A stretch of 61,056 nucleotides of DNA from a virus, in the IMG/VR virus record IMGVR_UViG_3300012080_000001, positions 1 to 61,056 of that record; one strand, given 5' to 3'. Position 1 is the first letter of the stretch. Each line of letters opens with the position of its first letter. The position numbers and the translations under genes were made by a program. The notes below the pieces were generated by a model that was not told where the DNA came from, did not search any database, and saw only the letters and a program-made list of their open reading frames with translations. Below, piece after piece: positions 3,322-56,894 of this stretch.

Positions 3322-4407
3322 TTATCTAATACTACGATCCGAATCCGTACGAATACAAGGAATAATCGTAGGCAAGTCGTGCGCATTCTCAAACATTTCA
3401 ATTAGCCCGTCTATCCCCTTCGCAAGTAAAACATCGTTTGCATCCTTATAAGCACTCTCACGCCATTGAATGACGGCTAATTCACGCCCTTTTAACGCTT
3501 GTACAACCTGTGTGTTAAATCTAGCGCCAGCCTTATCGTTATCTCCCGCAACCACTAACTTTTTGAAGGGAAGTCTCTGTATTATATCTTTTTGCTGAGT
3601 AGTAAATGAAACGCCACCGACTGCAATTGCGTTATATCCTGCGACACGCCACGACAAAGCATCTATCTCCGCCTCACATATAATCAAATCGTCATAGGAA
3701 CGATTGTACAAATCTGCTCCGAAAACTAGCTCCCGTATAGGCCTTGCGTTACGTTCGTAGAAAAACGTTTTTCCTTTAGTCGCTCGGTATTTCACGTTAG
3801 ACAACTGACCATCAGGAGAATACCAAGGAATAGCAACAAAGCCGTAGTGACGCGACTTTCCAACTTTTGCTTTGACTTGTACTTCTTCCGAAATACCACG
3901 TTTGTTCAAATATGGAGATGTTTGTATTTCGATAATATCACGATGCAAAACGGTTTTAAATCTATCTCTCCGCAAACTAGGTAAAATGAGTATTATGTCG
4001 CAGTTGTTCGATGATTCGCTATATTTGGACAATAAATATTCCACTGTTTCTTCAAACGTTTCGTTTCGTAGAAAGGAAAGTAGCTTTACAAATCCTCCCG
4101 ACTTCCATTCATCGTCATATGCACCTGAATCGCCCCAAGAGCCTGCTGGATAATCTCCGTTACCTTCAAGTAAGACAAAGAACGAAGGTGAGCGATCATG
4201 TCTAAATGGAGACGCTGCTATCAACTTGTCGTGAGACCATTTTGGACGATGCCATTCAAATTCCTCTAGTTCTGATTGTACGTCAATTTGGACGTCATGC
4301 CCTCGTATTTTAACGATTGCCAATATTGTCCACCCCTTTATTTTACCATAGCCTGAACCCCAACGTATCAATTCTTTATCGTTCGTCATGCGTCGAGATT
4401 TTAACAA
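3322..4407 (-). CDS. DNA primase (TOPRIM domain), with a Cys-less remnant of the CHC2 zinc-finger region
   Basis: TOPRIM motifs CEAEIDALSW and VAGDNDKAG. N-terminal SPFRHDRSPSFFV / GSWGDSG resembles CPFHxxxxPSF / CFGCG but lacks the cysteines. Start codon is uncertain. Confidence 0.75.
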   Translation of the reverse strand: MLKSRRMTNDKELIRWGSGYGKIKGWTILAIVKIRGHDVQIDVQSELEEFEWHRPKWSHDKLIAASPFRHDRSPSFFVLLEGNGDYPAGSWGDSGAYDDEWKSGGFVKLLSFLRNETFEETVEYLLSKYSESSNNCDIILILPSLRRDRFKTVLHRDIIEIQTSPYLNKRGISEEVQVKAKVGKSRHYGFVAIPWYSPDGQLSNVKYRATKGKTFFYERNARPIRELVFGADLYNRSYDDLIICEAEIDALSWRVAGYNAIAVGGVSFTTQQKDIIQRLPFKKLVVAGDNDKAGARFNTQVVQALKGRELAVIQWRESAYKDANDVLLAKGIDGLIEMFENAHDLPTIIPCIRTDSDRSIR

Positions 4408-8103: not shown

Positions 8104-8658
8104 ATGGGGGAATTTGAGGTGAATAAAATTAGTAAACCGTGGCATAAACGCTGGCAAGTTTGGGTTGTGGTATTTATAGCCCTATTAGTTTTAGGTACAA
8201 TATTACCTGCAGCAACTGATAATAAAAATGAAGAAGTTGTAAAATATGAACCGAAGATAGTGGTAAAAGCCGAAAAGACTCAAAATAAAACAGAAACAAA
8301 GAAGATTACTCGGTTAACCAAGGACGAAGTTTTAGAAAATTTTGAAGTTGAGCCTACTACTGAACCATATTTAGATGGGTCATTTACTTTTGTAGGAGAT
8401 CGTACAGATACTGCGGATTACTATTCGTTAGCTGACAATGAGCATTTTAGAAACGCAAGCGTCATTTTTAAAGACGGGCAAATCGTTAGAGTAAAATTGA
8501 TTCCTAACGATGCTAAAAATGTAAATAAACTTTTCGAAAGTTTCGGAATCAAGGACAAGCCTCGCAAATTAAATGGGACTGCCGGCTTTTATGAAGTTGC
8601 ACTAATTCCGAAATACTGGTCGCAGAATATAGAGAAATACCCATATGAGTTAGATTGA
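8104..8658 (+). CDS. Membrane-anchored hypothetical protein
   Basis: 184 aa with an N-terminal TM helix WQVWVVVFIALLVLGTILPA; divergent from the early minus-strand genes. Confidence 0.5.
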   Translation: MGEFEVNKISKPWHKRWQVWVVVFIALLVLGTILPAATDNKNEEVVKYEPKIVVKAEKTQNKTETKKITRLTKDEVLENFEVEPTTEPYLDGSFTFVGDRTDTADYYSLADNEHFRNASVIFKDGQIVRVKLIPNDAKNVNKLFESFGIKDKPRKLNGTAGFYEVALIPKYWSQNIEKYPYELD

Positions 8659-8676
8659 ATAGGAGGATGATTTACG

Positions 8677-8919
8677 TTGACAATAAGATTTACACTAGCA
8701 AATACTCTGCAAAAATATAGCATTCAACAAATTCAACTCGCAGAAGAATCGGGGACACGCCCAACTACTATTAGTCAAATGTGCCGCAATGACATTAAGC
8801 GAGTAAACATCGAAATGATAGAACGTATCATCCCTGCATTGGAACGACTTACTGGCGTAAAACACTCGCTAGAGGACGTCATGATATACGAAAGAGATGA
8901 AGAGACGGACGCCAATTAA
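8677..8919 (+). CDS. XRE-family HTH transcriptional regulator (repressor/Cro candidate)
   Basis: 80 aa, TTG start after AGGAGGA; HTH IQLAEESGTRPTTISQMCRN. Confidence 0.6.
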   Translation: MTIRFTLANTLQKYSIQQIQLAEESGTRPTTISQMCRNDIKRVNIEMIERIIPALERLTGVKHSLEDVMIYERDEETDAN

Positions 8920-8931
8920 GGCGTCTTTTTT
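8908..8931 (+). terminator. Rho-independent terminator
   Basis: gacgcc aattaa ggcgtc followed by T6; the stop codon lies in the loop. Confidence 0.6.
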
Positions 8932-8936
8932 CGTAC

Positions 8937-9893
8937 TTAAATATCCACTGTCAGCCAATTATAGACAGCTCGTCCAGACGCATGGCTACGCTCTTTTAGC
9001 CAGTTATAGAATGGAACTCTACGCTCAGTTTTCTGCTCAACTGACGCAGGCTTATCTACTAGTTTCGGACGAATTGAAGCGTTATTGTATGCACTCGTAA
9101 ACGCACCTACAACGTTAGTAAACGTAGTTCCATCTACTGTTGCTACGGACATATTAAGCAGCACAGATTTAGCACGTACAAAGTCATTTAGAGTCGCATT
9201 AGTTCCAACGCGTAATGCAATAATATGGGCTTTTGCTTTGATTTCTGCTGACATTGGCATTGATTCGATTAATTTAAACGTAGCTATTTGGTATTCATTT
9301 ACTGCGTACTTTTCGACATAGTCACGTTGATCCTCAATAGTTAATGTTTGCTCTTCTAGAATAATTTCAGAATTGCTTATAGGCGCTTTTATATTATCTT
9401 TTACTTGTTTTTTTAAAGATAGTTTAGAAAGATTATTAGTTATTGCTACGTCAATTTTCGTTTCATCAGCTGCATCAATTGTTTGAAAATCAGAAACAAT
9501 TTCGACATTTTCGTTAGTAATCGCTAATTCCTCTACTCGATTGAAAACGAAAATATTATGTGCTTGATACTTGTTTGCTTTTTGCGTATTGATAACAGTA
9601 ATTAAGTTTAGTTTACGAGCTTTACGGAGCATACGATCAAATGTCGAGCGACTAACACCAATCACGTCACTTGCGTGCGTACTGGCAACTGCCTTTTGAA
9701 TCTTGCACCAAGCTACCCCTACAACATTAGCTGCGTACTTACGTAATTTATTTAGAGCTATGTATTCGGATTTTGTAAACTCAGCTTTAACATCGAGCAT
9801 TGCTTGCTCAAAGTTATTGTTGAAATCATTAATATCCGTAAATTTCGATAGAGATTCATAGTTACGTTCTGTTGCGTATGAAAGTGTAGTCAT
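8937..9893 (-). CDS. Putative plasmid-type replication initiator / HTH protein
   Basis: About 318 aa from ATG 9893 (GGAGGA SD). HTH-like segment GVSRSTFDRMLRKARKLNLITV. Sits next to the par locus. Confidence 0.4.
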   Translation of the reverse strand: MTTLSYATERNYESLSKFTDINDFNNNFEQAMLDVKAEFTKSEYIALNKLRKYAANVVGVAWCKIQKAVASTHASDVIGVSRSTFDRMLRKARKLNLITVINTQKANKYQAHNIFVFNRVEELAITNENVEIVSDFQTIDAADETKIDVAITNNLSKLSLKKQVKDNIKAPISNSEIILEEQTLTIEDQRDYVEKYAVNEYQIATFKLIESMPMSAEIKAKAHIIALRVGTNATLNDFVRAKSVLLNMSVATVDGTTFTNVVGAFTSAYNNASIRPKLVDKPASVEQKTERRVPFYNWLKERSHASGRAVYNWLTVDI

Positions 9894-12867: not shown

Positions 12868-13012
12868 CACTTAAACGTTATTGCTAATATGTAGGATTCG
12901 TTGCATCCGAATTTACGCTTGTGGAGTGTTACAGTAAACGAAAGTAGCTTCGGCAAAATCGGACACGTAGAAGCAAGAATTAAACAAGATTTATAGATTT
13001 TTATAAATTTTT
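12868..13012 (+). ncRNA. Candidate omega-RNA (reRNA) scaffold of the TnpB unit
   Basis: Position is immediately 3' of tnpB. A local hairpin ggattcg ttgcatc cgaattt is present. No covariance model was run, so extent and 3' end are guesses. Confidence 0.35.
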
Positions 13013-24105: not shown

Positions 24106-24303
24106 TCACCCACGTTTCTCTAAGACTTTAACTACAAGTGCCTCTGCAATCCGGTAAATGTCAGCTTCTTCACGTACTACGATGCTATCTGCAAGTTTTG
24201 CGATAGAAATTGCGCCGCTAGATGAACCGCCGCCATTTTGCGAGTAGTGTCTGTTCTCACTCGCAGTTAAAACGCGCTCTCCTTTGTGTAATCGTGCCGA
24301 ATA
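24106..24303 (-). CDS. Tail tape measure protein, exon 2 (65 aa C-terminus)
   Basis: Start-less frame YSARLHKGERVLTASENRHYSQNGGGSSSGAISIAKLADSIVVREEADIYRIAEALVVKVLEKRG* continues the conserved TMP C-terminal motif PYDGY..LHKGERVLT. Confidence 0.75.
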   Translation of the reverse strand, partial: YSARLHKGERVLTASENRHYSQNGGGSSSGAISIAKLADSIVVREEADIYRIAEALVVKVLEKRG

Positions 24304-24553
24304 CAGTATGTTATCGTAAAGGCTTTTTATCCTCTACTTCTTACGGTTTCCCGCAAGCTCGGCGTACATTTTCACCTAAACGGTGTCGGACACTCTTGGA
24401 AGGATTATCGCTCTCATAACGCTCACCTTCTACGCTCTACGGTGGCGAGTGATGTACTCGCTTACCTCGGTGTTAACATAGTCTAAACCTTAGTCTTCAC
24501 CGATTTTGCCCGATTTTCATTGACGAATTTCTCCGTCAAGCGGCTATACAATA
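24304..24553 (-). ncRNA. 250-nt ORF-less intervening sequence in the tape measure gene; group-I-like intron candidate
   Basis: 5' junction follows U (GACGGU|UAUUG) and the last nt is G (ACUG|UAUUC). IGS GCCG pairs with exon CGGU, and AUA pairs with 3' exon UAU (P10). A Q-like AAUCCUUCCAAG pairs with GAAGG, and a 7-bp GAAA-tetraloop hairpin is present. Confidence 0.6.
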
Positions 24554-26566
24554 ACCGTCATATGGCACAGAATCTAAACCGCTGTAATGCGATTTCTTAC
24601 CACCTTTTTCTCCGCCAAGCATATTCCCAACGAACGACACAGTCGAATTGATTCCGCTAGATAGCCAGTCCGGCATTTTAACGGTGCTTATAAATCCAAC
24701 AAAGTCTTTAATGTTTTCGTACACAGTCGAAATCCATCCGCTCAACTTCTCGAACCATCCTTGCACGCCTGATAATGCGCTAGAAAGAATATCGAACGCA
24801 CCTTTAACGCCAGTTAGGATAAATTCGACTAGCGGACCTAACGCATTGTCCCATAACCACTTGATTACCTTAGTTAGTAACTCGAATCCCTTTGCGATAG
24901 CGTTAATAATTGGTTGAGCAATCGTCCATAAAGTCGAGAATAGTTGCGCAACAAACGAAAGCGCCGGAGCAAAGACGTTGTTAAAGACTATCACCGCAAC
25001 ATCTCCGAGAATTTGCAGTAGGTTCCAAAGTCCGCTTAAATACGGCTGAACGACCGTCCAAAGATTTGAAATGATACCGGAAATTGTCGTAACTATTGAC
25101 GTAAATGCCTCTTTCAGTCGCCCGAACACCGAGGAGAATTGTGTTACTTTTTCGGTGACAAATGCTTTAACTTCTTCTAATTTCGCTATAAGCTTATCGA
25201 ATGTTCCTTCTCCGAATATTTTATTAAATAATCCGCCAACTCCACCTGTTTTAAATGCTGACATCATACCGGATATTTTCGACTTAATTCCGTCAACTAC
25301 TACGTTCACTTTTTTAGCGATGTTTGGTGGTAAAATAGCATCAATTAATCCGCTAGTCCCGCCTGTTTTAAATGCGTCAACCAACGACTTGACTTTTCCG
25401 ACAATACTGCCGATAATACCTCGGAACGTTTCGCTATTGTCATAGAGCGCTTTTATTCCGACTGCTACTGCGGCAATTCCTGCTGCGATTAGTGCGACTG
25501 GATTCACAAGTGCTGCGATGACACCAACGACCGCAAATGCGCCTAAAGCTACGGTGATTGCTCCTGCTACATATGCGATAGGCTCTTTCCACTTCCAAAT
25601 GAATTTACCAAAGGCTATTGCTTTGTCTACGATGCTTGCGAGTTTTTCGTCTAACTTCGCAGCAATTCCGTCTAAATCTGCGTTATCGAATGCATCAACA
25701 ATTTTCCCTAGCGTGTCACCGAGTTTTGAGTTACCCATTCTGCCCACTTGACGAAGAAACTTCTCGACACGTTCGCCTATCTGCGACCAATATCCGAGAG
25801 TTGTCGAACCCATAGCCTCTACTGTTTTTTGTGTAATTCCCATACCGTCAAGTAGCTTAGTGATTTCTGCTATTTGTTGTGGAATTGCAAGTTTCTTGAT
25901 ACGGTTCAAATCCTTTTTACTCAATCCAAATCGCTCAACCATTGAAAGTGAATCTCCTTGCCACATCTCCTTTAAAGCGAATGTTGCTCCGTCAGTTCCT
26001 TGCGTCGGATCAAGCACCATTAATTTTTCGATAATTGACCACGCTTTCCCAAGTTCGTCAACGTTTTTAGTCATCGCTACTAATCCTTTTGAAGATGCTA
26101 ACATCTCGGTGGAGTTGAGTAACGGACTATCTATCGCCATCTTATCGACTAACTTTAGATATGCGTCTGATTTAGCGGCGTCATTAAATATTGCTTTAAC
26201 TGCGACATCTGATTGTTGATATCTAGCTGCAGCACCAATTGTTGCGTCGAACGCTTTAGCTGCGCCTTGAGCAGTTAGATAGGCGCCAGCAAGTCCTATA
26301 AGCGTGCTTTGCATTCCACCTAACGACGCACTAAGTCCGCTAGAGCTTACATGTAACCGGCTAACTCTCGCAGCGAATCCGCCCATACGATTTGAAGTCA
26401 TTGAAACTGCGTTACCTAGACGATTTGTCGCTGTTTGTGCGGCTGTCATACTTTGACTAGTTGTTCGGCTTGTTCGATTCATTCTATCCATCATTTGCGT
26501 GATTTGTCGTAGTCTTGAGGTGCCTTGGTCGCGAACACGAAATATTGCGGTTAAATTTACGGCCAT
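24554..26566 (-). CDS. Tail tape measure protein, exon 1 (671 aa)
   Basis: Long helical/TM-rich ORF between the chaperone and baseplate genes. As annotated, the ORF runs 5 codons into the intron and stops. Confidence 0.85.
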
Positions 26567-26752
26567 CTATTTTCCTCCTTTCTGACGTTCTCTTTCCGCC
26601 TTTTCTTCTTCCTCAATAACGAGCATTTCTGACGCGTAGATGAAATTTCTATGTCGTCGTTCCAATACGTAAATCTCATGAGGATACTTGTGTTTGTCTT
26701 GCCATATGCGGTGCAGCAAGTAAGCCTCGCCGCCCGCCAGAATTAGTTTTTT
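26567..26752 (-). CDS. -1 frameshift extension of the tail assembly chaperone (G/GT-type)
   Basis: Slippery heptamer A_AAA_AAC at 26746..26752 just before the 0-frame stop. The -1 frame is open for 62 codons (LILAGGEAYLLHRIWQDKHKYPHEIY...) and ends at TAG abutting the TMP ATG. Confidence 0.65.
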   Translation of the reverse strand, partial: KKLILAGGEAYLLHRIWQDKHKYPHEIYVLERRHRNFIYASEMLVIEEEEKAERERQKGGK

Positions 26753-27138
26753 ACTTCTTCGATTTCTTCCTCGTCGTCAAATCCGGACAGCTTCATAACA
26801 GCTTCTTGTAAAGATACAATTTCACCAAATAACAAAGCTTTTTGCACACACTCTCCTGCGTCCGTTGCGCCAAAATGTTCAAGTAAACTCGGATCAGCAA
26901 AGTTAGGGTCTATTACTGATTTAGCGATAATTAAGCGAGCAACCTCTTCTTCGTTTACCTTTAACTCTGATTTTTTGCCGTTTTTAACTATCTGAGTAGC
27001 TTGATCACGAATTTTATCGAGGTCGTCACCTGTGAGTGCCTTAATTGTAAAATCTCCTCCTAGTCGCTTAATTGAAATAGTGTCAGTAATTTCTACTGTT
27101 GGTTTTGAGCCTAATAGCGCTTGTAATATGTTTGTCAA
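26743..27138 (-). CDS. Tail assembly chaperone (XkdN-like)
   Basis: 131 aa, acidic C-terminus, between tube and TMP. Confidence 0.65.
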   Translation of the reverse strand: MTNILQALLGSKPTVEITDTISIKRLGGDFTIKALTGDDLDKIRDQATQIVKNGKKSELKVNEEEVARLIIAKSVIDPNFADPSLLEHFGATDAGECVQKALLFGEIVSLQEAVMKLSGFDDEEEIEEVKN

Positions 27139-27215: not shown

Positions 27216-27647
27216 TTAAATAGTGATGTATTCGTAGCCTTCGCAAACGAATTGTAATTCTTCCTCGACTAATGAGCCGTGCTCGAAGTTGATTACGGGA
27301 ATATTCGTAAATTGAACGCCTTTAATACGGATTTTCTCCGCACCTACTGGCGCATTTTCAGGGTCTTCTAAAGCTACGATAAGATCTGTTACAAATGCGC
27401 CCTTAGTGTCGTCCGTAATCTGTCCGATTTTCTTTGCAAACTCATTGCTCATTTTGTACGACTTAATTGTTCCAGTAAATTCGTAGTCCATCGCCTTTTT
27501 ACCTTTAGCGCGTGTTCCCGAACGTTTAACATCTTCGTAGGTGATTTCTCCGTTAACTTCAACCCCGTATACGTTCATAAGCCACTGTCCGTCGTGGATT
27601 AACTTACCGAATGTTCCGCTGACAGCACCCGTTGATTTCATAACCAT
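27216..27647 (-). CDS. Tail tube protein (XkdM-like)
   Basis: 143 aa immediately after the sheath gene. Confidence 0.7.
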   Translation of the reverse strand: MVMKSTGAVSGTFGKLIHDGQWLMNVYGVEVNGEITYEDVKRSGTRAKGKKAMDYEFTGTIKSYKMSNEFAKKIGQITDDTKGAFVTDLIVALEDPENAPVGAEKIRIKGVQFTNIPVINFEHGSLVEEELQFVCEGYEYITI

Positions 27648-27692: not shown

Positions 27693-28772
27693 CTAAACAG
27701 TAATCGTCAAGAAAATTCGTTCCATAGAGTCAACTGGCGTGTAAGCTACCGCTAAGAATACTTTATCTCCCTCGGATTTATAGCGAGTATCTAGTGCTAC
27801 TTGAGGATTCATTAGCACGTTCTCAGTTTCGAGTTGCTCCAGATATGCTTTGATTGAGGCAATTAATGACGCTTGACCGTTCGGATTATTATCGACCTTA
27901 CCGATGTAAGCGTCTCGCGCTGTCGCTGGAATATCAGAAGCGATCGCTTGTTTAGCACGCGTTGTTCGGATTTTTCCGCGTTCTACTGCGCTAGAATCTG
28001 TTGTTACTCCTTGTTCGATGCGAACCTTTTTGCCGTCCTTTACAATTACAAGTGATCCGGAGATTAATGCAGTCTCAATCTGCGAGTTCTTTAGACGCAA
28101 AGTAACGTCTGACACTGGCAGCTCTGTGTAAGTAATCGATTTATTAACAGGTGTTCCAGCGATTAATCCTGCGATATACGGTGCATAATCCGCGGATTGT
28201 ACTTCTGTACCGTCGGGTAGAACTACGCCAGTAACTAAATTTGCGATATATTCATCTTTTAAAACGATACTTCTAGCGTTACCAACTGTAATGTCCAAGT
28301 CGTCCTCTGCGCTTCCACCAGCTACGTACATAAAGTGTTTACCTTCGTTTCGACAATCGGCTACCCATGCTTTAGTTGACGTTTGTTCTGTAGCGCTAAT
28401 AACTGTTGGATAAACGAAAACATTGAAGTCCTGTACCGAGTAAGCTTCACGTAATGAATCATATTGCGCCGACTCTACTTCTGGCATAATCAATTCTGGA
28501 ACCGCATAGACCAATACCTCCTTCGCTCCACCCTCTAATACACGCTTAATGGACACAGCGTTAACACTTCCGACTAAATCATTAGCGTCCGCAACATCTT
28601 CAACTGTGTAAAATTTCCCACTTACTGCAGTACCGACATATTTGAATATCGGCAATGCTACGATGCCTCTTGGACCTCCGCCAATGCCAGCAAGCGCTGC
28701 ACGAATGAAGCGCATGTACAACCCTGGACGTACTGGTAAGGATGTTGGATCAAAAATCCCTCCGTTTGCCAT
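27693..28772 (-). CDS. Contractile tail sheath protein (XkdK-like)
   Basis: 359 aa; N-terminus GIFDPTSLPVRPGLYMRF typical of sheath proteins. Confidence 0.8.
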   Translation of the reverse strand: MANGGIFDPTSLPVRPGLYMRFIRAALAGIGGGPRGIVALPIFKYVGTAVSGKFYTVEDVADANDLVGSVNAVSIKRVLEGGAKEVLVYAVPELIMPEVESAQYDSLREAYSVQDFNVFVYPTVISATEQTSTKAWVADCRNEGKHFMYVAGGSAEDDLDITVGNARSIVLKDEYIANLVTGVVLPDGTEVQSADYAPYIAGLIAGTPVNKSITYTELPVSDVTLRLKNSQIETALISGSLVIVKDGKKVRIEQGVTTDSSAVERGKIRTTRAKQAIASDIPATARDAYIGKVDNNPNGQASLIASIKAYLEQLETENVLMNPQVALDTRYKSEGDKVFLAVAYTPVDSMERIFLTITV

Positions 28773-35276: not shown

Positions 35277-37277
35277 TCATTTATTTATTCCATAATTTTG
35301 GGCCAACCGCCATACGGCGCCTCGTGAAGTATTATACTTCTTTCCAATATCTTGATATCCTAATCCTTTTATCACTATCAAATCATGTAGTGTCTCTTTT
35401 GAAATCACATCTTTTAGTGTAGGCTTTCTTATATCCAATTTCTTTTGTATTAATGTAGTTGAGCATTTGTATCTTTCTGCTAATTTTCTGAATGTCCACC
35501 CCTGAAGATAAAGTCTTTTAGCTTCTTCTAAGGGTATATCATCCCTAGTACTCCTGTGCTTAATGTGAATATCATTTTTACGCAAATATTTCGCTACTGT
35601 TATTGGTGATAAGTTTAACTTATCTGCCGTATCACGTAGACAATGATTTTCGCTATATAGCTTTAAAATACTAGTTTCGTCAATTTGTCTAAGTATACCG
35701 AGTTCTTTCATTCTTGCCCTCACTACACTCTCAGATACCTGTAATATAGCAGAAACTTCAAGTATTGTATGTCCATCACTCAATAATCTTTTTAAAACAA
35801 CATCGTCAACTTTTATTTTATTTCTTTGAAGATCGATGCTGATGTTATTTTCCTTTAGTAACTCTCTTACTGCCCACTCTGGTATTTTATAGTGCTGTGC
35901 CACTTCTTTAACTGTTTTATCGGAACTCCTATACATACTAATTAGCCCTTGTATGTCATCAAATAATGTGTACCCAATACCATCGTCTTTTACTTTATAC
36001 CTTCGAATATTAGTATTAACTCCATTATCTCTTAAAACTTTTGAAACTTTATTTAAAGAACAATCTAATTCTTTGGATATTTGATTCATCGACATTCCGC
36101 TCTTAAATAGCGGATAAACTAACTCGTACGTAATGTCTAGTCTCAGATGGTTTGTTGTGCGCTCTATCCCATATGACTTTAGCGATTTTTTAATTTCCCA
36201 CTTCGTCATCCCTAATTCTTCTCCTATTTTCCTAACAGATAAACCTTCATTATATTTGGTTAAAATAAGGGATGTATCTTTAGTTAGTAAGCTGAATGCA
36301 TCTGCATAATATTTAATATCAGGTGCTCTGCACGGATACTTTGCGCTATGGAACTCATATGCAATCGAACTAAAGTTTTTTGTCTCCAATTGTCTTTGTA
36401 ACCAATATTTATTTTGGAATGCAAACAGAAGCCCTTTATGGTTCATGTAAGCAATAGTTCTGTGATGATCAACGTTAGTAGTTTTACGCATTTCTTTTAA
36501 TGACATATTAAAATGGTTTTTATCGACGTACTCTCTCCATTCTTTCTCTAGAATTTCAAAATGAATCACTTCAAACTTCTCTTCGCTATGCTGATTGTGG
36601 TGACATAAATCACATAATGTGATTAAGTTATTTATATCTGTTAATCGACTATCTCTTTCGCAAATATCTACAAAAATTAAGCGTTCCTTTTCATCTAAAA
36701 GACTTAGCTTAGGGTTTTCAGAAAGTATGTCCTGTACAATATCGGAGAACCTTCGAAGGTGATGAGCATGTAAATTTCGAGGAGCTCCACACTCCCCACA
36801 CTTGTATCCATCTAAGGCTAAACGTTCTTTAGAGACCCACGCTAACCTATTTCTAATTAACCTAGAGACTGCTGTTACTCCGCCTTTCCATCTCGGATGT
36901 TCATCTAACCGCATACCCCATTTTTCCTTACGTTCTTCCGAGGTAAATGACTTATCTCCAGCATTCAACCTTATCTGTATGTTAAATTTCTTTAATCTTT
37001 TAAGGACTAAACGATTACTGCATCCAACTTTTGCTGCAATATCCCTAGAACTTAACTTTTGGATATTATATAAATCCTCTAATAGCTCTTTTGTTAAGTT
37101 TGGATACGTGTTGGGCTTTCTTCTTCCAACACCAACTTCATCTAGTCTACGTAATATTAATGTACTACTTACATTGAATAAGCCTGCTATCTGGTTACTA
37201 GACATCCCTTTTAAGTATAATTTGACAATATCTTCGTTTTTAATATGTGTATATCGGTTACGTGCTACTCTTGTCAT
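35277..37277 (-). CDS. Free-standing HNH endonuclease with about 11 tandem HTH (NUMOD1-like) modules
   Basis: HNH core CGECGAPRNLHAHH...LITLCDLCHHNQH. Repeated units of about 35 aa follow the pattern LY..G.S...IA..L.vS..tV.r.Lk..gI. Start at ATG 37277 (GAGGAGTG SD). AT-rich relative to flanks. Confidence 0.7.
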   Translation of the reverse strand: MTRVARNRYTHIKNEDIVKLYLKGMSSNQIAGLFNVSSTLILRRLDEVGVGRRKPNTYPNLTKELLEDLYNIQKLSSRDIAAKVGCSNRLVLKRLKKFNIQIRLNAGDKSFTSEERKEKWGMRLDEHPRWKGGVTAVSRLIRNRLAWVSKERLALDGYKCGECGAPRNLHAHHLRRFSDIVQDILSENPKLSLLDEKERLIFVDICERDSRLTDINNLITLCDLCHHNQHSEEKFEVIHFEILEKEWREYVDKNHFNMSLKEMRKTTNVDHHRTIAYMNHKGLLFAFQNKYWLQRQLETKNFSSIAYEFHSAKYPCRAPDIKYYADAFSLLTKDTSLILTKYNEGLSVRKIGEELGMTKWEIKKSLKSYGIERTTNHLRLDITYELVYPLFKSGMSMNQISKELDCSLNKVSKVLRDNGVNTNIRRYKVKDDGIGYTLFDDIQGLISMYRSSDKTVKEVAQHYKIPEWAVRELLKENNISIDLQRNKIKVDDVVLKRLLSDGHTILEVSAILQVSESVVRARMKELGILRQIDETSILKLYSENHCLRDTADKLNLSPITVAKYLRKNDIHIKHRSTRDDIPLEEAKRLYLQGWTFRKLAERYKCSTTLIQKKLDIRKPTLKDVISKETLHDLIVIKGLGYQDIGKKYNTSRGAVWRLAQNYGINK

Positions 37278-37423
37278 ACTAATCACTCCTCGTTGTGATT
37301 TCTCGGTATAAATAAGGTGGAAACACATCGAGATATGTGCTTGTTAATTCAGGGAGCTACCCTTCATCTATCCACCTATGATGGTTATCGGCATAAATTT
37401 GCGTTAGTTTAGCGTTAATTATA

Positions 37424-39136
37424 TTATAACCACACTGGTTTTTCTTGTATTTGTATTTTCTTCGTACCTTGCGCCAACTGAAACGCCATTGCAAGTGCAT
37501 CCGGACCATCGTCCCATCGAGCGTTAGGGTACAACTCTAATTGTTCGATTAATAAACGATGCTTCTTGCTGAATCGTATCTTACTGTTCTGTATATCAGG
37601 TAATAACGCCTCAATACGTAATGACTTTCGCATACGTTGTTTAACCTCTTTGACGCGTGTAATTCCTGGATAGCCATATCGTTGCAGTTCTTCCTTTACT
37701 TTATGGGCGAACCACTCTTGCGCCATCTGTGCCTCTACTGCGATTCCTGCGTATTGGTAATATAGTGCCTTTTGTACGACTGTATTCAGTAGTATATCGG
37801 GATGTACGCGTTCTATAAACGTATCAACAACGTAACAAGTACCTGTATCTTGATTCCTAGCAAGTGTTACAATTGCAGAGTAATCACCTTTTTCCTTCCC
37901 CATTGCAAAATCCACGGCTGCATAATAGTCCACTTGCATACTTTCTAACTCTGACTCGTAATAGTACGTAAATTCCTCTGGTTTGAAAATCTGCGAATCA
38001 GGGTCTGTAGGATTACCTAAATACTCCTGGTTAAATGCTCTGCCGCCCATCGACTCTCGTTTTTCCATAAAGTATTTATATGAATACATTTGTGGCCATA
38101 ACGTTTTAGTTCCTCGTAGCATCTCTTTTTCATTTTCTTCGTAAAAAGCGTTTGCTTTTTCGTTGGAGTCTACGTCGTCGCTATTGTAAATCTCACGCCA
38201 ATGATCCCATAAATCCTCGCGCTCTGTCCAAGATAAAATCGCAGGAAACTTACGGCTAATGAAGTCTTTTCGTTGTGTGATTACGTGATTAAGTAAAGAG
38301 TCTGGACCTAAAATCGTCCCCATGTAAATACAGATACCACCGAACCCTAACGCCTCCATCATTTCTGACCGGAACCAGTGTAAGTTTTTCATACGAAGTT
38401 CAGGCGTATTTGTATTTGCGTTACTTTCAAGGTCATCTAGCAAGAAAAGTCCTGGACGATTACTAAGGTGCCGGAGTCCCCTCATTTGCGTACCCATCCC
38501 CTTCGCCTCTACCTTTGTACCGCTAGTAGTAATGAACTCTAACTTATTATCTACTTCGTTCGCTTGCGATTTTGGATATAATAGTTCGCCGAAATCAGCA
38601 CGTAGACGCTCGTTAAATTTTAGATTCTGCGCAGTAAACTTTATGAAATCTGCTGCTACATCTGTAGTGTCAGAAACTTCGATTATATATTTCTGTTTAC
38701 GATACGTAACTTGGTGGCATAGATACGCATTAGATAGGTACCCAGTTTTCGCATGTCGGCGTCCTACAGACCATGCAACGTTTGATGACGACTTCCCTTT
38801 TGTGATGTCGTCCAACAATTTGCAAAGTTCTCGGTGAAAGTCTGCCGCATCTTCATATCGCTGCCCTTTCGGAATTAAATTGACTTCATTTTCTGGATTC
38901 GATTCGTCGGAGAAATATTGATATACGAAATATAATAAATCATCCTCACAACGATGAATACGTTCCAATCGCTTTAACTCCGTCAACCTAGCGTAATAAT
39001 CCTCGATAAGTCCAGCACTAATAATGCCGTCAATATTAGAATACTTACTGTCTATAGTATCTACATACTCCCGATACACTGTGATCAATGCTTCGCGTTT
39101 ATCTCGTTCAAGCCATTCTCCGTTTACCCATGCCAT
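37424..39136 (-). CDS. terL: Terminase large subunit
   Basis: 570 aa; Walker A-like VGRRHAKTGY; C-terminal nuclease region; upstream of portal. Confidence 0.85.
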   Translation of the reverse strand: MAWVNGEWLERDKREALITVYREYVDTIDSKYSNIDGIISAGLIEDYYARLTELKRLERIHRCEDDLLYFVYQYFSDESNPENEVNLIPKGQRYEDAADFHRELCKLLDDITKGKSSSNVAWSVGRRHAKTGYLSNAYLCHQVTYRKQKYIIEVSDTTDVAADFIKFTAQNLKFNERLRADFGELLYPKSQANEVDNKLEFITTSGTKVEAKGMGTQMRGLRHLSNRPGLFLLDDLESNANTNTPELRMKNLHWFRSEMMEALGFGGICIYMGTILGPDSLLNHVITQRKDFISRKFPAILSWTEREDLWDHWREIYNSDDVDSNEKANAFYEENEKEMLRGTKTLWPQMYSYKYFMEKRESMGGRAFNQEYLGNPTDPDSQIFKPEEFTYYYESELESMQVDYYAAVDFAMGKEKGDYSAIVTLARNQDTGTCYVVDTFIERVHPDILLNTVVQKALYYQYAGIAVEAQMAQEWFAHKVKEELQRYGYPGITRVKEVKQRMRKSLRIEALLPDIQNSKIRFSKKHRLLIEQLELYPNARWDDGPDALAMAFQLAQGTKKIQIQEKPVWL

Positions 39137-53550: not shown

Positions 53551-53934
53551 TTAATCGAAGTGAAAATCTGAGTCATGTAGGGGTTCGACAGTTGCCTTTT
53601 TATATCCGTTTCCCTTCATCGAAAAGAAGTCATGTGATTTTGTTTTCGTCGATAGTCCGTTTAAAACGATTGGATTAAAGTTGTCATGCATGTAATAAGT
53701 GTCAAAGCCTAAGTTGGATAAGGCTTTATTAGCGTTGTACTGAACGAAATTAAGGACATCGTATGTCAAACCAACATCATCATAAATGTCTGCGGTATAT
53801 AACGCTTCGTTCTGGTATAGCTTTTCAAGTGTCTCGTGTACCCACGTAGACAATTCGCTTTGTACCTCAGACGATTGGCGGTTATAAATTTCCTGCGCTA
53901 ATAAACCGACATAGACTCCGTGAATACTCTCATC
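53551..53934 (-). CDS. nrdF: Ribonucleotide reductase class Ib beta subunit, exon 2
   Basis: Begins [15 protein letters not shown], completing the iron-ligand motif ...IINLIIR|DESIHG. Confidence 0.85.
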
Positions 53935-54216
53935 CGTTGTATTCAAGTGAGTTCGCTAGGCTCACCCCGTTCTCTTATGAACTGCTACGTATTTCTACGC
54001 AGACTAGACTATATCATGCGCCATAAAGCGCCTCCCCTTTTCGAACGCCAATCGCTTGCGTTCTACTCTACTAACTTCCGCATTTCTGCGTGTTTTCGAT
54101 AGTCGTTGAACCTTCGATACTTTGCCACCCATGCTTATATCGTATCGCTTGGCTGCGGATTGCCCTTGTAGGGTGTCCCCGCAATTAAAGGAGTTTTGAA
54201 TCCGCCACAAAAGTTA
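53935..54216 (-). ncRNA. Group I intron (282 nt, ORF-less) in nrdF
   Basis: All four classical core elements are present: P AAUUGCGGG (54177..54186), Q AAUCCGCAGCC (54151..54161), R GUUCAACGACUA (54100..54111), S GAUAUAGUC (54007..54015). A 7-bp P1 pairs AAUCCGU with GCGGAUU. The intron ends in G. Confidence 0.85.
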
Positions 54217-54801
54217 ACGGATTATTAGGTTGATGATCTCACCAGCCTGCATTAGTTTTCCTTGTCCGTACATATACAATGGATAGTAGAAGCCACTGTA
54301 AAATAAGAATGACTCAAGGAATACTGATGCAACTAGTGCTTTATAGAGTGAAATATCATCGTTATTTTTAATCGACTTATATTGCGTCACAATGACGTCA
54401 GCTTTTGATTGCAAATATTGATTTTCTGTTACCCAATCGAACACACCTTTAATTTCCTCACGGTTTGCTAAAGTTAAGAAAATGTTAGAGTACGATTTGG
54501 CATGGACTGAGTTCTCCATAGCAGACATGAATGTAAGCAGTGCTTGTCGCTGATGTCCTTTAATATGCGGAATTAATCGTGGTATACCCACTCCTTGCTC
54601 TGTATCAAGCAACGTCAATCCGCCAAGTACGCGCATATAAGCTTTCTGCTCTGCGTTTGATAGCCCCTTCCAAGTCAATAAATCCGGTGTGAGCGATATT
54701 TCTTCTGGTAGCCAAAACTGTGAGTGATTCTGCTTTAGAAAAGCCTGCGTAAATGAATCGTCATCTATCGCATAGTTAGCAGCCGTATATACATTGGTCA
54801 T
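54217..54801 (-). CDS. nrdF: Ribonucleotide reductase class Ib beta subunit, exon 1
   Basis: Start at ATG 54801 (GGAGG SD); ends ...GEIINLIIR. Confidence 0.85.
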
Positions 54802-54812
54802 AAAATTCCTCC

Positions 54813-56894
54813 TTAAACTTGGCACGCAAGACATGTATCTGCACCTGTATCTTTTGTTCGTGCATAGTAAAGTGTCTTGATTCCTTTATGATGAGCGTAT
54901 AAATCAATCTTCGTTAAATCTCGCGTTGTCATTGTGTCACGTAGGAACAATGTAAAACTAATGCCCTGATCAACATGTCGTTGTATCGTTGCAATTAAAT
55001 CAACAACATTTCTCATATCCATTTCATACGCTTCTTTGTAGTACCCCCATGTCTTATATGACAGGTTTGGCATTGGATAGTATGTTTTCGAATTACCATA
55101 AGTTCGTTCTTCGATACGCTCCATAATTGGCATAACGCTCGCTGTTGCAGATTGTACATAACTTATTGAGCCTGTCGGAGCAATTGCAAGGCGATAAGCA
55201 TTATATAAGCCATATTTAGCTACATCGGCTACTAATTCCATCCAGTCGTCTGTTGTAGGTAACTCGATGCCGTCAAATAAAGATGCAATGTACTCGTCTT
55301 TCGGTAAATAACTATTGTTGACGTAGTCTAAGAAGTAACTACCATCGGCATAACTCGACTTTTCAAATCCTAAAAATACAGTTTCTTTTTGTTTTGCTAT
55401 CTCCATTGAACGTTTAATAGAGTAATAGTTAACTGCAGCAAAGAATACATCTGCAAATTCAATGGCTTTTGAGCTTTCATAGTCAATTCCTACACTCGCT
55501 AGATAGCCATGTAAGTTCATAGCACCTAAACCAATCGAATGCATTTCCTTATTTGCTTTTGAAACTGCTGGAGCATTTGTAATATTTGTTGCCTCAGACA
55601 CAATTGTTAAAGCATCTGTAGCTAAAGATACTACACGGTCAATGTCTTTTAACCGCATAATATTAGCAATATTCAATGATCCTAAATTACATGAAATGTC
55701 TAATCCGATTTCATCTTGTTGTCCATAATCTGTGTACGTTGATTGCTCGGATAATTGTAAAATCTCACTGCACAGATTTGAAAATTTCACAGTTCCATTT
55801 AAAGCATGAGCTTCGTTCACATTGTCACTAAACATAATATAAGGATAGCCCGACTCAAAGCGTAATGCTGCAATCTTTTCAAGTAATTGTCGTGGATTAA
55901 CTTTGTCTTTTCGTATTGCAGGATTAGTTACTAACTCCTCATATCGTGATGATATGTCTATATCAGAGAAGCGTTCCCCTGTAGCCATTTCTACAGTATG
56001 TGGATAGAAAATGTAAGCTGGTTTATTCTCTCTAGCAAGTTCGATAAACTTATCTGGAATAACAACGCCAATTGATAGCGTTTTTACTCGTACATCTTCA
56101 TCAGCACTAATTTTTTTCGTATCAAGAAAGTCGTTAATATCTGCGTGAAAGACATTTAAATAGGCTGCTCCAGCACCAGGGCGCTGGCCCATTTGATTTG
56201 CATACCGAAAAGCATGGTCAAGCATTTTCATAACGCCAACAACGCCTTTTGAAACGTTTCTAATACCCTTGATGGACTCACCTTTAGCTCGGATATTGGA
56301 TAAGTTTAGTGATACGCCTCCGCCTACTTTTGAAAGCTGTTTAGCTGTTGATTCTGCCATATTAATATCGTTTAAGCTGTCGCCTACTTCCGTTAAAAAA
56401 CAAGATACTAGTTCACCTCTGCGTTTACGTCCTACATTTAAAAACGTAGGTGTCGCTGGTTGGTACTCCTGTTCGATAAGTAAGTCGGCATAATCGAGCG
56501 CCTTTTGCGGATCACCTTCTGCAAAAAATAAAGCATTTACTGCGATGCGATCCTCGTATCGTTCTAAAATACACTCTTTATCATCTGTCATTAATGCGTA
56601 ATCATTATAAAACTTGTATGCGGACATGAAAGAAGGAAAACGGAATTTCTTCGCATAAGCACGTTTATAGACAGCTTTTACTTGTTCAAAGGTATACTGT
56701 TCGAATAACTCTTGTTCGTAATAATTGTTTTCAAATAAATAGTTGAGCTTTTCGCGCAAGTTATGGAAAAACATCGTCTTTTTATTAACGTAATCTAAAA
56801 AGTAAGCGCGTGTTGCTTCCTGATCTTTTTCGTATTGATAAATGTCTTTATCGCCTTGTAGCATTATTTCGTTATTTAATTCGTAGTATCGCAA
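54813..56894 (-). CDS. nrdE: Ribonucleotide reductase class Ib alpha subunit
   Basis: 693 aa; NLCSEI and C-terminal YYARTKD...CLACQV features. Confidence 0.9.

What the first reader, a model, noticed from the sequence alone, without database searches (positions are those of the whole stretch)
24304..24553. Tail tape measure gene interrupted by a 250-nt ORF-less, group-I-like intervening sequence
The TMP ORF stops at 24536, five codons after ...SVPYDGY. The rest of the conserved C-terminus (YSARLHKGERVLTASENR... to a stop overlapping the next gene's start region) lies in frame at 24106..24303 with no start codon.

Removing 24304..24553 joins ...PYDG|YSARLHKGERVLT. TATT is present at both borders, so the exact junction is ambiguous but the product is the same.

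Boundary rules fit a group I intron:
- U precedes the 5' splice site and pairs with the G of an internal guide GCCG.
- AUA next to the guide pairs with the 3' exon UAU (P10).
- The terminal nucleotide is G.

Internally I find a Q-like AAUCCUUCCAAG pairing with GAAGG (P4), a GUGU/ACAC hairpin (P6-like) and a 7-bp GAAA tetraloop hairpin. I could not find the canonical R/S pair (GACUA...UAGUC) in the right order. It could be a divergent group I ribozyme or something less conventional. Naive annotation would call a truncated TMP. In that case tail length and C-terminal function depend on splicing.
Basis: partly seen in the sequence, partly recalled or inferred. Interest (0 to 1): 0.8.

Follow-up and report, generated by a model that had tools for sequence, protein, structure and literature searches.

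The report
Group I intron in tape-measure gene
The tail tape measure gene of this PBSX-like Lysinibacillus phage is split by a genuine 250-nt, ORF-less group I self-splicing intron; this is a real feature that gene callers miss, but the same kind of intron has been described in Bacillus prophage tape measure genes since 2008.

Summary
On the minus strand the tape measure (TMP) ORF runs 26566..24554. A 250-nt ORF-less insert follows at 24553..24304. The conserved C-terminus continues in frame at 24303..24106.

The insert is a group I intron:
- Rfam RF00028 aligns over its full length (48.0 bits, curated threshold 50, E 5e-11 in an 801-nt search).
- The energy-only fold recovers P2-P6a, P7.1, P8, P9 and P9.1 (z = -3.7).
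- Across 99 distinct relatives, 91% of cells in my P1-P9.1 model pair, against 37-44% when the partners are slid. 63 of 69 pairs show changes on both sides.
- The P3/P7 pseudoknot is supported, and the guanosine-binding G-C pair next to a bulged A is near-invariant.

Its "P4" is really P7.1, which marks the intron as IA-type.

Five Lysinibacillus genomes carry uninterrupted TMPs reading ...SVPYDGY[SY]ARLHKGERV. One has a 96.8%-identical intron at the same site in a TMP only about 55-59% identical. Another has a different intron at that site.

Relatives are common in Firmicutes phages, mostly in TMP genes, and some carry a GIY-YIG endonuclease. TMP group I introns were published by Tourasse & Kolstø (2008), so this is a new member of a known kind. 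Splicing itself was not tested.

The parts
24554..26566 (-). TMP exon 1 (671 codons, ends ...SVPYDG, last base U24554)
   Evidence: ORF and translation. PHROG tape measure profiles match, e.g. phrog_58 at 8e-30 and phrog_991 profile positions 666-867. Neighbours are sheath, tube and XkdN-like chaperone upstream, and LysM/Dit-like and YqbQ-like proteins downstream.
24304..24553 (-). Group I intron, 250 nt, no ORF, IA-type
   Evidence: Rfam RF00028 48.0 bits, E 5e-11. MFE fold z = -3.72. Own covariance model R1 scores 309 bits. Covariation: 91.3% of cells paired, 63/69 pairs with double changes. Stops in all frames.
24106..24303 (-). TMP exon 2 (65 codons plus stop; YSARLHKGERVLT...EKRG*)
   Evidence: Translation. 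It matches phrog_991 TMP profile positions 861-915, directly continuing exon 1's match. It is colinear with the C-termini of intron-less Lysinibacillus TMPs.
24541..24557 (-). P1: exon CGGU (24557..24554) plus intron UAU (24553..24551), paired with internal guide AUAGCCG (24547..24541). U24554·G24544 is the wobble at the 5' splice site.
   Evidence: Sequence. In the family, P1 is 88.5% paired with all 6 pairs covarying. The splice-site pair is U·G in 45 rows and U-A in 16.
24536..24538 (-). In-frame UGA stop, five codons into the intron, at the P1/P2 boundary
   Evidence: Translation. An early in-frame stop is the pattern reported for Bacillus TMP, nrd and recA introns (PMC2504315).
24520..24539 (-). 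P2 hairpin UUGACG-GAGAAAUU-CGUCAA
   Evidence: MFE fold. 85% paired, 6/6 pairs covary.
24507..24513 (-). P3 5' strand UCGGGCA
   Evidence: Pairs with 24392..24386. It is recovered as a long-range helix by the MFE fold. 7/7 pairs covary. L010 has UCAACCA/UGGUUGA.
24467..24503 (-). P4 (UCGGUG/CACCGA), P5 (GAC/GUU), P5a (GGU-UUAG-ACU)
   Evidence: MFE fold and covariation. The window/L009 difference in P5a is a compensatory U-A to C-G change. In relative L032 a GIY-YIG ORF sits in this loop.
24441..24466 (-). P6/P6a: GGU-AA-GCGAGU-ACAUC-ACUCGC-C-ACC
   Evidence: MFE fold. 91-92% paired, all pairs covary.
24431..24437 (-). P7 5' strand G-(A24436 bulge)-GCGUA. G24435 pairs with C24362, the presumed guanosine-binding pair.
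   Evidence: Pairs with UACGCC at 24366..24361. P7 was not part of the covariance model, yet it is 98.2% paired. GC<->AU covariation occurs at two pairs (46/33 and 46/28). The G-C pair is present in 79 of 81 rows.
24399..24430 (-). P7.1 (GAAGG/CCUUC) with an internal loop and a possible P7.2 (GUUAU/AUAAU), inserted between P7 and the 3' strand of P3
   Evidence: MFE fold. P7.1 is 98.5% paired with 5/5 pairs covarying. P7.2 is not conserved in relatives.
24386..24392 (-). P3 3' strand UGUCCGA
   Evidence: See the P3 5' strand entry.
24373..24385 (-). P8 hairpin CACC-GUUUA-GGUG
   Evidence: MFE fold and covariation. L001 has CAACC...GGUUG.
24361..24366 (-). P7 3' strand UACGCC, preceded by J8/7 AAAAUG (24372..24367)
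   Evidence: It aligns to the Rfam consensus AAGAUAUAGUC.
24340..24357 (-). P9 hairpin CUUGCGG-GAAA-CCGUAAG
   Evidence: Rfam alignment, MFE fold. 97.5% paired, 6/7 pairs covary.
24305..24335 (-). P9.1 (AGAGG-AUAAAAAG-CCUUU, 24335..24318) and the 3' tail, with P9.0 (CU 24306..24305 pairing with AG 24359..24358)
   Evidence: MFE fold. An exact 28-nt core of this segment occurs in at least 120 IMG/VR contigs. P9.0 shows AG/CU, AA/UU, AU/AU and AC/GU by inspection and is 77% paired.
24304..24304 (-). Terminal guanosine (omega G) at the 3' splice site
   Evidence: Sequence. It is the only choice within the TATT ambiguity that ends in G and keeps the reading frame.
24301..24303 (-). First exon-2 codon UAU, able to pair with guide AUA 24547..24545 (P10)
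   Evidence: Sequence only. The family-wide count was inconclusive.

Best explanation
The insert at 24553..24304 (minus strand) is a compact, endonuclease-less group I intron of the IA type. It sits inside the most conserved C-terminal motif of the tape measure gene of a PBSX-like contractile-tail phage or prophage, most likely of Lysinibacillus.

**Proposed mechanism**
1. The late transcript folds into the P1-P9.1 structure.
2. An exogenous guanosine bound at the G24435-C24362 pair of P7 attacks after U24554, which is held by the guide AUAGCCG.
3. The freed exon-1 3'-OH then attacks after the terminal G24304.
4. This joins GGU|UAU to give ...SVPYDG-YSARLHKGERV... and a 736-aa TMP.
5. Ribosomes that enter unspliced RNA stop at the UGA five codons into the intron.

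**Origin**
The intron belongs to a large family of Firmicutes-phage introns that mostly live in TMP genes and retune P1/P10 to each site. This copy has no endonuclease gene. It probably arrived by recombination-based homing from a related phage.

**Shown:** anatomy, fold, covariation, intron-less and intron-bearing alleles, and the exon co-conversion pattern.

**Inferred:** actual splicing, that the full-length TMP is needed for tail assembly, and the mode of transfer.
For: **Boundaries and restored frame**
-.

**Group I identity**
- Rfam Intron_gpI aligns over its full length: 48.0 bits, E 5e-11.
- The energy-only MFE fold recovers P2, P3, P4, P5, P6/P6a, P7.1, P8, P9 and P9.1, with z = -3.72.
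- My covariance model finds 117 relatives in 100 sources.
- On that alignment 91.3% of cells pair, against 37-44% with slid partners. 63 of 69 pairs have changes on both sides, and 0 of 500 shuffles reach any measure.
- P7 was left out of the model, yet it is 98.2% paired with GC<->AU covariation.

**Alleles**
- Five full-length intron-less TMP ORFs (699-822 aa) read ...PYD[GS]Y[SY][AT]RLHKGER....
- L009 has the same intron (242/250 identical) at the same codon, although its exons fall to about 60% nucleotide identity beyond about 60 nt.
- L010 has a different, 352-nt intron at the same site.
- The first 42 nt of exon 2 match at 41/42 and 39/42 between intron-bearing alleles. Intron-less alleles match at only 27-32/42, including L004, which encodes the same peptide there.
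- Of the 8 window/L009 intron differences, 3 preserve or improve pairing, 4 are unpaired and 1 opens a loop-closing pair.

**Host gene and family**
- Exons 1 and 2 hit consecutive parts of one TMP profile: phrog_991 positions 666-867, then 861-915.
- A relative in another TMP gene carries a GIY-YIG ORF in the P5 loop.
- 8 of 10 cluster representatives of 3' exons are TMPs.
- Published precedent for TMP group I introns, including the early in-frame stop and endonuclease-less copies: PMC2504315.
Against: - No RNA, protein or in-vitro data are available, so splicing is inferred.
- The Rfam score is 2 bits under the curated threshold. The intron is not listed in a whole-window gathering search.
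- P10 is only 3 bp, and its family-wide count is no better than slid controls.
- There is no endonuclease gene in the intron, so present-day mobility is unexplained.
- Part of the high identity of the exon flanks is expected from the strongly conserved peptide alone.
Confidence: 0.88

Rival explanations
1. The intron is a splicing-dead relic. The TMP is truncated at 676 aa, and the prophage is defective or manages without the C-terminal 65 residues.
For: - Splicing is untested.
- The intron has lost any endonuclease gene.
- The Rfam score is just under threshold.
- PBSX-like elements are often defective (my own knowledge).
Against: - Every core helix is intact, as are the bulged-A/G-C guanosine site, the U·G pair and the terminal G.
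- Differences from the L009 copy are compensatory or lie in loops.
- Exon 2 remains an open, conserved 65-codon frame ending at the normal position before the next gene.
- Two other genomes keep introns at this site with intact exon 2.
Confidence: 0.07
2. There is no RNA splicing. The two pieces are made as separate polypeptides, or are joined by some recoding event such as a frameshift or ribosome bypass.
For: Phage tail genes do use programmed frameshifts, and bypassing exists in T4 gene 60 (my own knowledge).
Against: - Exon 2 has no start codon or ribosome-binding context at its 5' end.
- The gap is 250 nt, with stops in all frames.
- The gap folds as a covarying group I ribozyme whose guide pairs with both exon ends.
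- Homologues are single uninterrupted ORFs.
Confidence: 0.03
3. The insert is another kind of element (group II intron, intein, IS/MITE) or an assembly artefact.
For: None specific.
Against: - It is too short and ORF-less for a group II intron or an intein.
- No other Rfam family matched at E up to 10.
- The same insert at the same codon occurs in an independent genome assembly, L009. A variant occurs in L010.
Confidence: 0.01

Closest known systems
Group I introns in the tape measure genes of Bacillus cereus-group prophages (TMP-IVS1, IVS2, IVS3a/b; Tourasse & Kolstø 2008, PMC2504315)
   Same: - The host gene is a TMP, in a Bacillales prophage or phage.
- Structural class is IA.
- Insertion is in frame, with a stop codon in the first few intron codons.
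- Most copies lack an endonuclease gene.
- The same intron occurs in different prophages.
- Different introns are adapted to one site (window/L009 versus L010), and homologous introns are retuned through P1/P10 to different sites (L001, L032, L065).
- Some relatives carry GIY-YIG endonucleases.
   Different: - The host here is a roughly 740-aa TMP of a PBSX-like contractile-tail element in Lysinibacillus, not the >1200-aa TMP of lambdaBa01-like siphoviruses.
- The insertion site is the C-terminal PYDG|Y motif.
- I did not fetch the B. cereus introns, so direct sequence homology to them is untested.
Phage subgroup IA2 introns (T4 td/nrdB/sunY, SPO1 DNA polymerase, Staphylococcus phage Twort orf142)
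   Same: Compact self-splicing phage introns with P7.1/P7.2 between P7 and P3' and extra P9.x helices. They insert at highly conserved codons. Endonuclease ORFs are optional and sit in peripheral loops. (Architecture recalled from Michel & Westhof 1990 and the Twort structure; my own knowledge.)
   Different: - The host gene differs.
- The P7 spelling here is GCGUA/UACGC rather than GACUA/UAGUC.
- Exact IA1 versus IA2 assignment was not made here.
Rfam RF00028 Intron_gpI
   Same: Full-length alignment (model positions 1-253) with P1, P2, P3, P4, P8 and P9 in register.
   Different: - It scores 48.0 bits, under the gathering score of 50.
- The model forces P6 across the P6a-P7-P7.1 region and deletes the P7 5' strand.
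- The near-identical L009 copy was lost by the filters in a 60-kb search.
The nrdF group I intron in the same window (53985..54225, minus strand)
   Same: A second ORF-less group I intron in the same phage, in a classic target gene.
   Different: It is a different lineage. It has the canonical GACUA/UAGUC P7, scores 66.8 bits with Rfam, and is not detected by my family model R1.

Membership tests
Group I intron (RF00028) | P1 helix formed by the 5' exon end and an internal guide, with a U·G wobble at the 5' splice site | tested here: met
   CGGU|UAU pairs with AUAGCCG, and U24554 pairs with G24544. In the family all 6 P1 pairs covary, and the splice-site pair is U·G in 45 rows and U-A in 16.
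Group I intron (RF00028) | Intron ends in G (omega G) | tested here: met
   G24304. It is the only frame-restoring junction within the TATT repeat that ends in G.
Group I intron (RF00028) | Conserved core P3-P8 including the P3/P7 pseudoknot, supported by covariation | tested here: met
   P3 7/7, P4 5/6, P5 3/3, P6 3/3 and P8 4/4 pairs have double changes. P7 is 98.2% paired although it was absent from the model used to align. Overall 91.3% of cells pair, against 37-44% when slid. The MFE fold agrees.
Group I intron (RF00028) | Guanosine-binding site: a G-C pair in P7 next to a bulged nucleotide | tested here: met
   G24437, bulged A24436, and G24435-C24362. The G-C pair is present in 79 of 81 family rows. 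Its identification as the G site rests on analogy with Tetrahymena C262/A263/G264-C311 (my own knowledge).
Group I intron (RF00028) | P10 pairing between the guide and the 3' exon | tested here: inconclusive
   3 bp (AUA/UAU) in the window. Hand-checked relatives fit: L001 UUAUU/AAUAA and L105 UCUUU/AAAGA. The family count of 46.9% paired is no better than slid controls.
Group I intron (RF00028) | Score at or above Rfam's gathering threshold | tested here: not met
   48.0 bits against 50, and absent from the gathering search. E 5e-11 for the local search, so the shortfall reflects the IA-specific P7.1 insert and variant P7, not a lack of signal.
Group I intron (RF00028) | Guanosine-dependent self-splicing | not testable with these tools
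   Needs in-vitro transcription with GTP, or RT-PCR.
Subgroup IA group I introns | Extra helix or helices P7.1(/P7.2) between the 5' strand of P7 and the 3' strand of P3 | tested here: met
   GAAGG/CCUUC at 24430..24399 lies directly after P7. It is 98.5% paired with 5/5 pairs covarying. The definition is recalled from Michel & Westhof 1990. Bacillus TMP introns are reported as IA1 or IA2. IA1 versus IA2 was not resolved.
Mobile (homing) group I intron | Intron-encoded homing endonuclease | tested here: not met
   250 nt with stops in all three frames. Relative L032 does carry a 293-aa GIY-YIG ORF in the P5 loop.
Mobile (homing) group I intron | Intron-plus and intron-minus alleles of the same site in related genomes | tested here: met
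   Intron-less: L004-L008. Intron-bearing: window, L009, L010.
Mobile (homing) group I intron | Intron far more similar than its exons, with co-converted exon flanks | tested here: met
   The intron is 96.8% identical against about 60% for exons beyond about 60 nt. The 3' flank matches at 41/42 and 39/42 among intron-bearing alleles, against 27-32/42 for intron-less ones, including one with the same peptide. The 5' flank is not clearly co-converted (32/36 against 29-31/36).
TMP-gene group I introns of Bacillales prophages (PMC2504315) | Host gene is the tail tape measure gene; insertion is in frame with an early stop | tested here: met
   PHROG TMP hits for both exons and PBSX-like tail synteny. 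UGA at intron codon 5.
TMP-gene group I introns of Bacillales prophages (PMC2504315) | Sequence homology to the published B. cereus-group TMP-IVS1/2/3 introns | not tested

The most novel reading that the evidence does not exclude
Two untested possibilities remain, and my evidence neither supports nor excludes either.

1. The endonuclease-less intron may still be actively mobile between TMP genes that are only about 55-60% identical. In that reading, the nearly invariant 3' module (P9.1 plus tail, 36-37/37 identical in otherwise 57-81% identical introns) acts as a portable cassette. It could allow core swapping or trans-acting homing, for example through a free-standing endonuclease such as the 683-aa HNH-like ORF at 35277..37328, or through reverse splicing.

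2. Splicing efficiency may be used to set the ratio of full-length to C-terminally truncated TMP.
Probability: 0.1. Interest if true: 0.5.

Novelty: new member of a known kind. Interest (0 to 1): 0.28.

Why it matters
**Annotation.** The source assembly's gene caller produced a truncated 676-aa TMP and no gene for the last 65 codons. Rfam at its curated threshold does not flag the intron. TMP length, often used to predict tail length, would therefore be misread for this phage, and the C-terminal domain would be missed. The same applies to many relatives. At least 120 IMG/VR contigs carry the family's 3' signature. Among the 102 of those loci with a usable 3' exon, at least 75 lie in tape measure genes.

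**Biology.** The locus is a clean extra example of two patterns described for Bacillus prophages: different introns converging on one conserved site, and one intron family retargeting through P1/P10. It does not open a new question.

Tried and rejected
- **Rfam whole-window gathering search.** It does not list this intron. Only a permissive local search does. A permissive 60-kb search over ten loci also missed the 96.8%-identical L009 copy, so Rfam negatives are uninformative for this family.
I rejected 'P4' (GAAGG/CCUUC) and the 'P6-like' GUGU/ACAC hairpin. The former is P7.1. The latter conflicts with the covarying P3 and P8.
- **Rfam's own alignment of the middle of the intron.** P6 spanning a 58-nt insert with the P7 5' strand deleted is an artefact. 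GCGUA at 24435..24431 pairs with UACGC and covaries.
- **3' splice site at G24341, where the Rfam alignment ends.** Rejected: joining there gives AAG UAG, an immediate stop. The downstream P9.1 and tail are conserved family-wide.
- **P10 covariation across the family.** Inconclusive.
- **A tertiary pairing between the P7.2 loop GUUAU and the tail AUAAC.** Relatives without P7.2 lack the partner, so I dropped it.
- **Megablast of 24 kb of the window against GenBank phages.** No match, so the phage itself is not a described one.
- **Using the IMG/VR loci to argue that the 3' tail is conserved.** Rejected as circular, because those loci were selected by an exact match to it.

Full report
**1. What is in the sequence**

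The gene lies on the minus strand.
- The ORF 26566..24536 encodes 676 aa ending ...SVPYDGYCIAA*.
- From 24303 to 24106 the same strand reads YSARLHKGERVLTASENR...LEKRG* with no start codon.
- The next gene (LysM/Dit-like) starts at GTG 24101.
- Deleting 24553..24304 (250 nt, 45% G+C, stops in all frames) gives a 736-aa product with the junction ...PYDG|YSARLHKGERV.

**2. The host gene and its setting**

Exon 1 hits PHROG tape measure families. Exon 2 hits the next segment of the same profile: phrog_991 positions 666-867, then 861-915.

The neighbours form a PBSX/skin-like contractile-tail module:
- Upstream: tail sheath (27693..28772), tube (27216..27647), XkdN-like chaperone (26743..27138).
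- Downstream: LysM/Dit-like protein, YqbQ-like protein, sheath initiator, baseplate J.

The window corresponds to a 60,947-bp contig assembled from run SRR6448465. There the gene caller produced the truncated 676-aa protein and nothing for exon 2. No GenBank phage is close at the DNA level. The nearest TMP homologues are all from Lysinibacillus.

**3. The insert is a group I intron**

*Rfam.* RF00028 aligns over its whole length (model 1-253) to 24563..24340 with 48.0 bits. That is E 5e-11 in the 801-nt search, but 2 bits below the curated threshold. This is why the whole-window gathering search lists only the other intron at 53985..54225.

*Secondary structure,* read from the sequence and its relatives:

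| Element | Sequence |
|---|---|
| P1 | CGGU\|UAU / AUAGCCG, with U24554·G24544 |
| P2 | UUGACG / CGUCAA |
| P3 | UCGGGCA / UGUCCGA |
| P4 | UCGGUG / CACCGA |
| P5 | GAC / GUU |
| P5a | GGU / ACU |
| P6, P6a | GGU / ACC, GCGAGU / ACUCGC |
| P7 | G-(bulged A24436)-GCGUA / UACGCC |
| P7.1 | GAAGG / CCUUC, between P7 and the 3' strand of P3 |
| P8 | CACC / GGUG |
| P9.0 | AG / CU |
| P9 | CUUGCGG-GAAA-CCGUAAG |
| P9.1 | AGAGG / CCUUU |
| Terminal base | G24304 |
| P10 | AUA / UAU |

*Thermodynamics.* An energy-only fold of the 250 nt independently returns P2, P3 (as a long-range helix), P4, P5, P6/P6a, P7.1, P8, P9 and P9.1. The MFE is -74.2 kcal/mol with z = -3.72, and 0 of 200 shuffles fold as well.

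*Covariation.*
- A covariance model built from five copies found 117 matches in 100 sources.
- On that alignment (99 distinct rows) 91.3% of cells form standard pairs, against 37-44% when partners are slid by 1-3 columns.
- 63 of 69 pairs show changes on both sides, and no shuffle reaches any measure.
- The alignment was fitted to the nested helices, which favours them. P7 was not in the model, yet it is 98.2% paired, with GC<->AU exchanges at two positions. Its G-C pair next to the bulged A is present in 79 of 81 rows.

Its 'P4' is P7.1. Its GUGU/ACAC hairpin is not real: those bases belong to P3 and P8. P7.1 between P7 and P3' marks a subgroup IA intron (definition from my knowledge of Michel & Westhof 1990). 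The Bacillus TMP introns are likewise reported as IA1 or IA2.

**4. Alleles with and without the intron**

A search with the spliced C-terminal 173 aa found proteins that cover the junction without interruption.

In reference genomes:
- Five Lysinibacillus loci (L004-L008) have full-length TMP ORFs of 699-822 aa. They read ...PYD[GS]Y[SY][AT]RLHKGER... and end 64-66 residues later, as the spliced window product does.
- L009 (Lysinibacillus sp. FJAT-14745) carries the same intron at the same codon, 242/250 identical. Its exons drop to about 60% nucleotide identity beyond about 60 nt.
- L010 (L. capsici PB300) carries a different 352-nt intron at the same codon. It shares P1 and the guide, and 36 of the last 37 nt (97.3%), but has a different core.

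Exon flanks:
- The first 42 nt of exon 2 match at 41/42 and 39/42 between the window and the other two intron-bearing alleles.
- Every intron-less allele matches at only 27-32/42. This includes L004, which encodes the identical peptide there. This is the pattern expected from co-conversion during recombination-based homing.
- The 5' flank shows no clear excess.

Of the eight differences between the window and L009 introns:
- two form a compensatory U-A to C-G change in P5a;
- one turns G·U into G-C in P3;
- four are unpaired;
- one opens the loop-closing pair of P6a in L009.

**5. The wider family**

- Against GenBank phages the intron matches 69 records from Staphylococcus, Clostridium, Clostridioides, Streptococcus, Bacillus, Caldibacillus, Alicyclobacillus and others. 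Identity reaches 81-83% over most of its length in Sextaecvirus-like phages.
- In Arcanobacterium phage TPWB06 and Caldibacillus phage CBP1 the match also lies in or next to the annotated TMP. In Alicyclobacillus phage MMB025 it lies in the DNA polymerase gene beside an endonuclease gene.
- A 28-nt piece of the 3' tail occurs exactly in at least 120 IMG/VR contigs.
- Of 102 such loci with a usable 3' exon, the clusters whose representatives I classified as TMP hold 75 loci (8 of 10 representatives). The other two representatives are a large terminase and a major head protein.
- In L032 and about 15 similar contigs the intron splits a TMP gene and carries a 293-aa GIY-YIG ORF in the P5 loop.
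- P1 and P10 differ from site to site: GGGU/GCCC with UUAUU/AAUAA in L001, GGGGU/GCCCU with UCUUU/AAAGA in L105.

**6. Comparison with what is known**

Tourasse & Kolstø (2008, PMC2504315) describe group I introns at three sites in TMP genes of B. cereus-group prophages. They report:
- class IA1 or IA2;
- in-frame insertion with stop codons in the first 27 nt;
- most copies without endonuclease genes;
- the same 'immobile' intron in different prophages;
- homologous introns retuned to different sites;
- different introns adapted to one site;
- GIY-YIG or HNH endonucleases in a few copies.

Every one of these features recurs here. Introns in other phage structural genes are also documented: terminase, capsid, and minor tail. 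I found no paper on such an intron in Lysinibacillus or in a PBSX-like TMP. I did not test direct homology with the B. cereus introns. The finding is therefore a new member of a known kind.

**7. Mechanism and confidence**

*Shown:* the anatomy of a complete IA-type ribozyme, its family-wide covariation, the exact frame-restoring splice sites, intron-less and intron-bearing alleles, and a co-conversion-like 3' flank.

*Inferred:*
- The RNA self-splices through guanosine attack after U24554 and exon ligation after G24304.
- The UGA at 24538..24536 keeps ribosomes out of the core.
- The full-length 736-aa TMP is the functional product.
- The intron arrived by homing from a related phage and later lost, or never had, its endonuclease.

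I put 0.88 on the overall explanation. Rivals: a splicing-dead relic 0.07, separate polypeptides or recoding 0.03, another kind of element or an artefact 0.01.

**8. Dead ends**

- P10 could not be supported by family counts.
- A candidate tertiary pairing between the P7.2 loop and the tail is not conserved.
- Rfam searches on larger inputs miss even near-identical copies.
- The IMG/VR set cannot be used to argue that the 3' tail is conserved, because it was selected by that tail.

Noticed in passing
window 53985..54225 (minus strand): A second ORF-less group I intron (Rfam RF00028, 66.8 bits, canonical GACUA/UAGUC P7). It splits a ribonucleotide reductase small-subunit gene into ORFs 54214..54834 and 53551..53946. 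It belongs to a different lineage from the TMP intron and is not hit by model R1.
   Followed up: partly
window 12918..12979 (plus strand): RAGATH-18 RNA motif, 71 bits against a gathering score of 44.9.
   Followed up: no
window 35277..37328 (minus strand): A 683-aa ORF just downstream of the large terminase gene (37424..39136). It has repeated hits to HNH-endonuclease, homing-endonuclease and DNA-binding PHROG families. It may be a free-standing homing endonuclease sitting inside the head/packaging module.
   Followed up: no
L010 1232..1523 and 3334..3685 (Lysinibacillus capsici PB300): The orthologous TMP gene carries two group I introns. One is upstream (Rfam 47.3 bits). The other is a 352-nt intron at the same PYDG|Y codon as in the window, with the same P1 and guide, 36 of the last 37 nt identical, and a different core.
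   Followed up: partly
window 24304..24340; L001, L010, L012 and phage-database hits: The last 37 nt of the intron (P9.1 plus tail) are 36/37 identical (97.3%) in L010, whose intron is otherwise only 57% identical overall, and look equally conserved by eye in the ~81%-identical L001/L012 introns. Many phage-database hits cover only query positions 176-245. I found no explanation for why this 3' module is so much better conserved than the catalytic core.
   Followed up: partly
L032 8020..9231 (IMG/VR UViG_3300045988_017937) and about 15 similar contigs: A relative of the intron splits another TMP gene and carries a 293-aa GIY-YIG homing endonuclease ORF (8144..9025) in the P5 loop.
   Followed up: partly
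L009 3331..3580; window 24304..24553: Rfam cmscan on 60 kb with E up to 0.001 did not report the L009 copy. That copy is 96.8% identical to the window intron, which scores 48 bits when searched locally. This intron family is likely to be under-annotated in phage genomes generally.
   Followed up: partly
P0012 (Lysinibacillus sp. UGB7) and L011/P0010 (Lysinibacillus sp. ZYM-1): Some homologous TMP predictions are fragments. P0012 stops about 28 residues before the intron site. P0010 starts inside the TMP. They may hide further interruptions or contig-edge effects.
   Followed up: no
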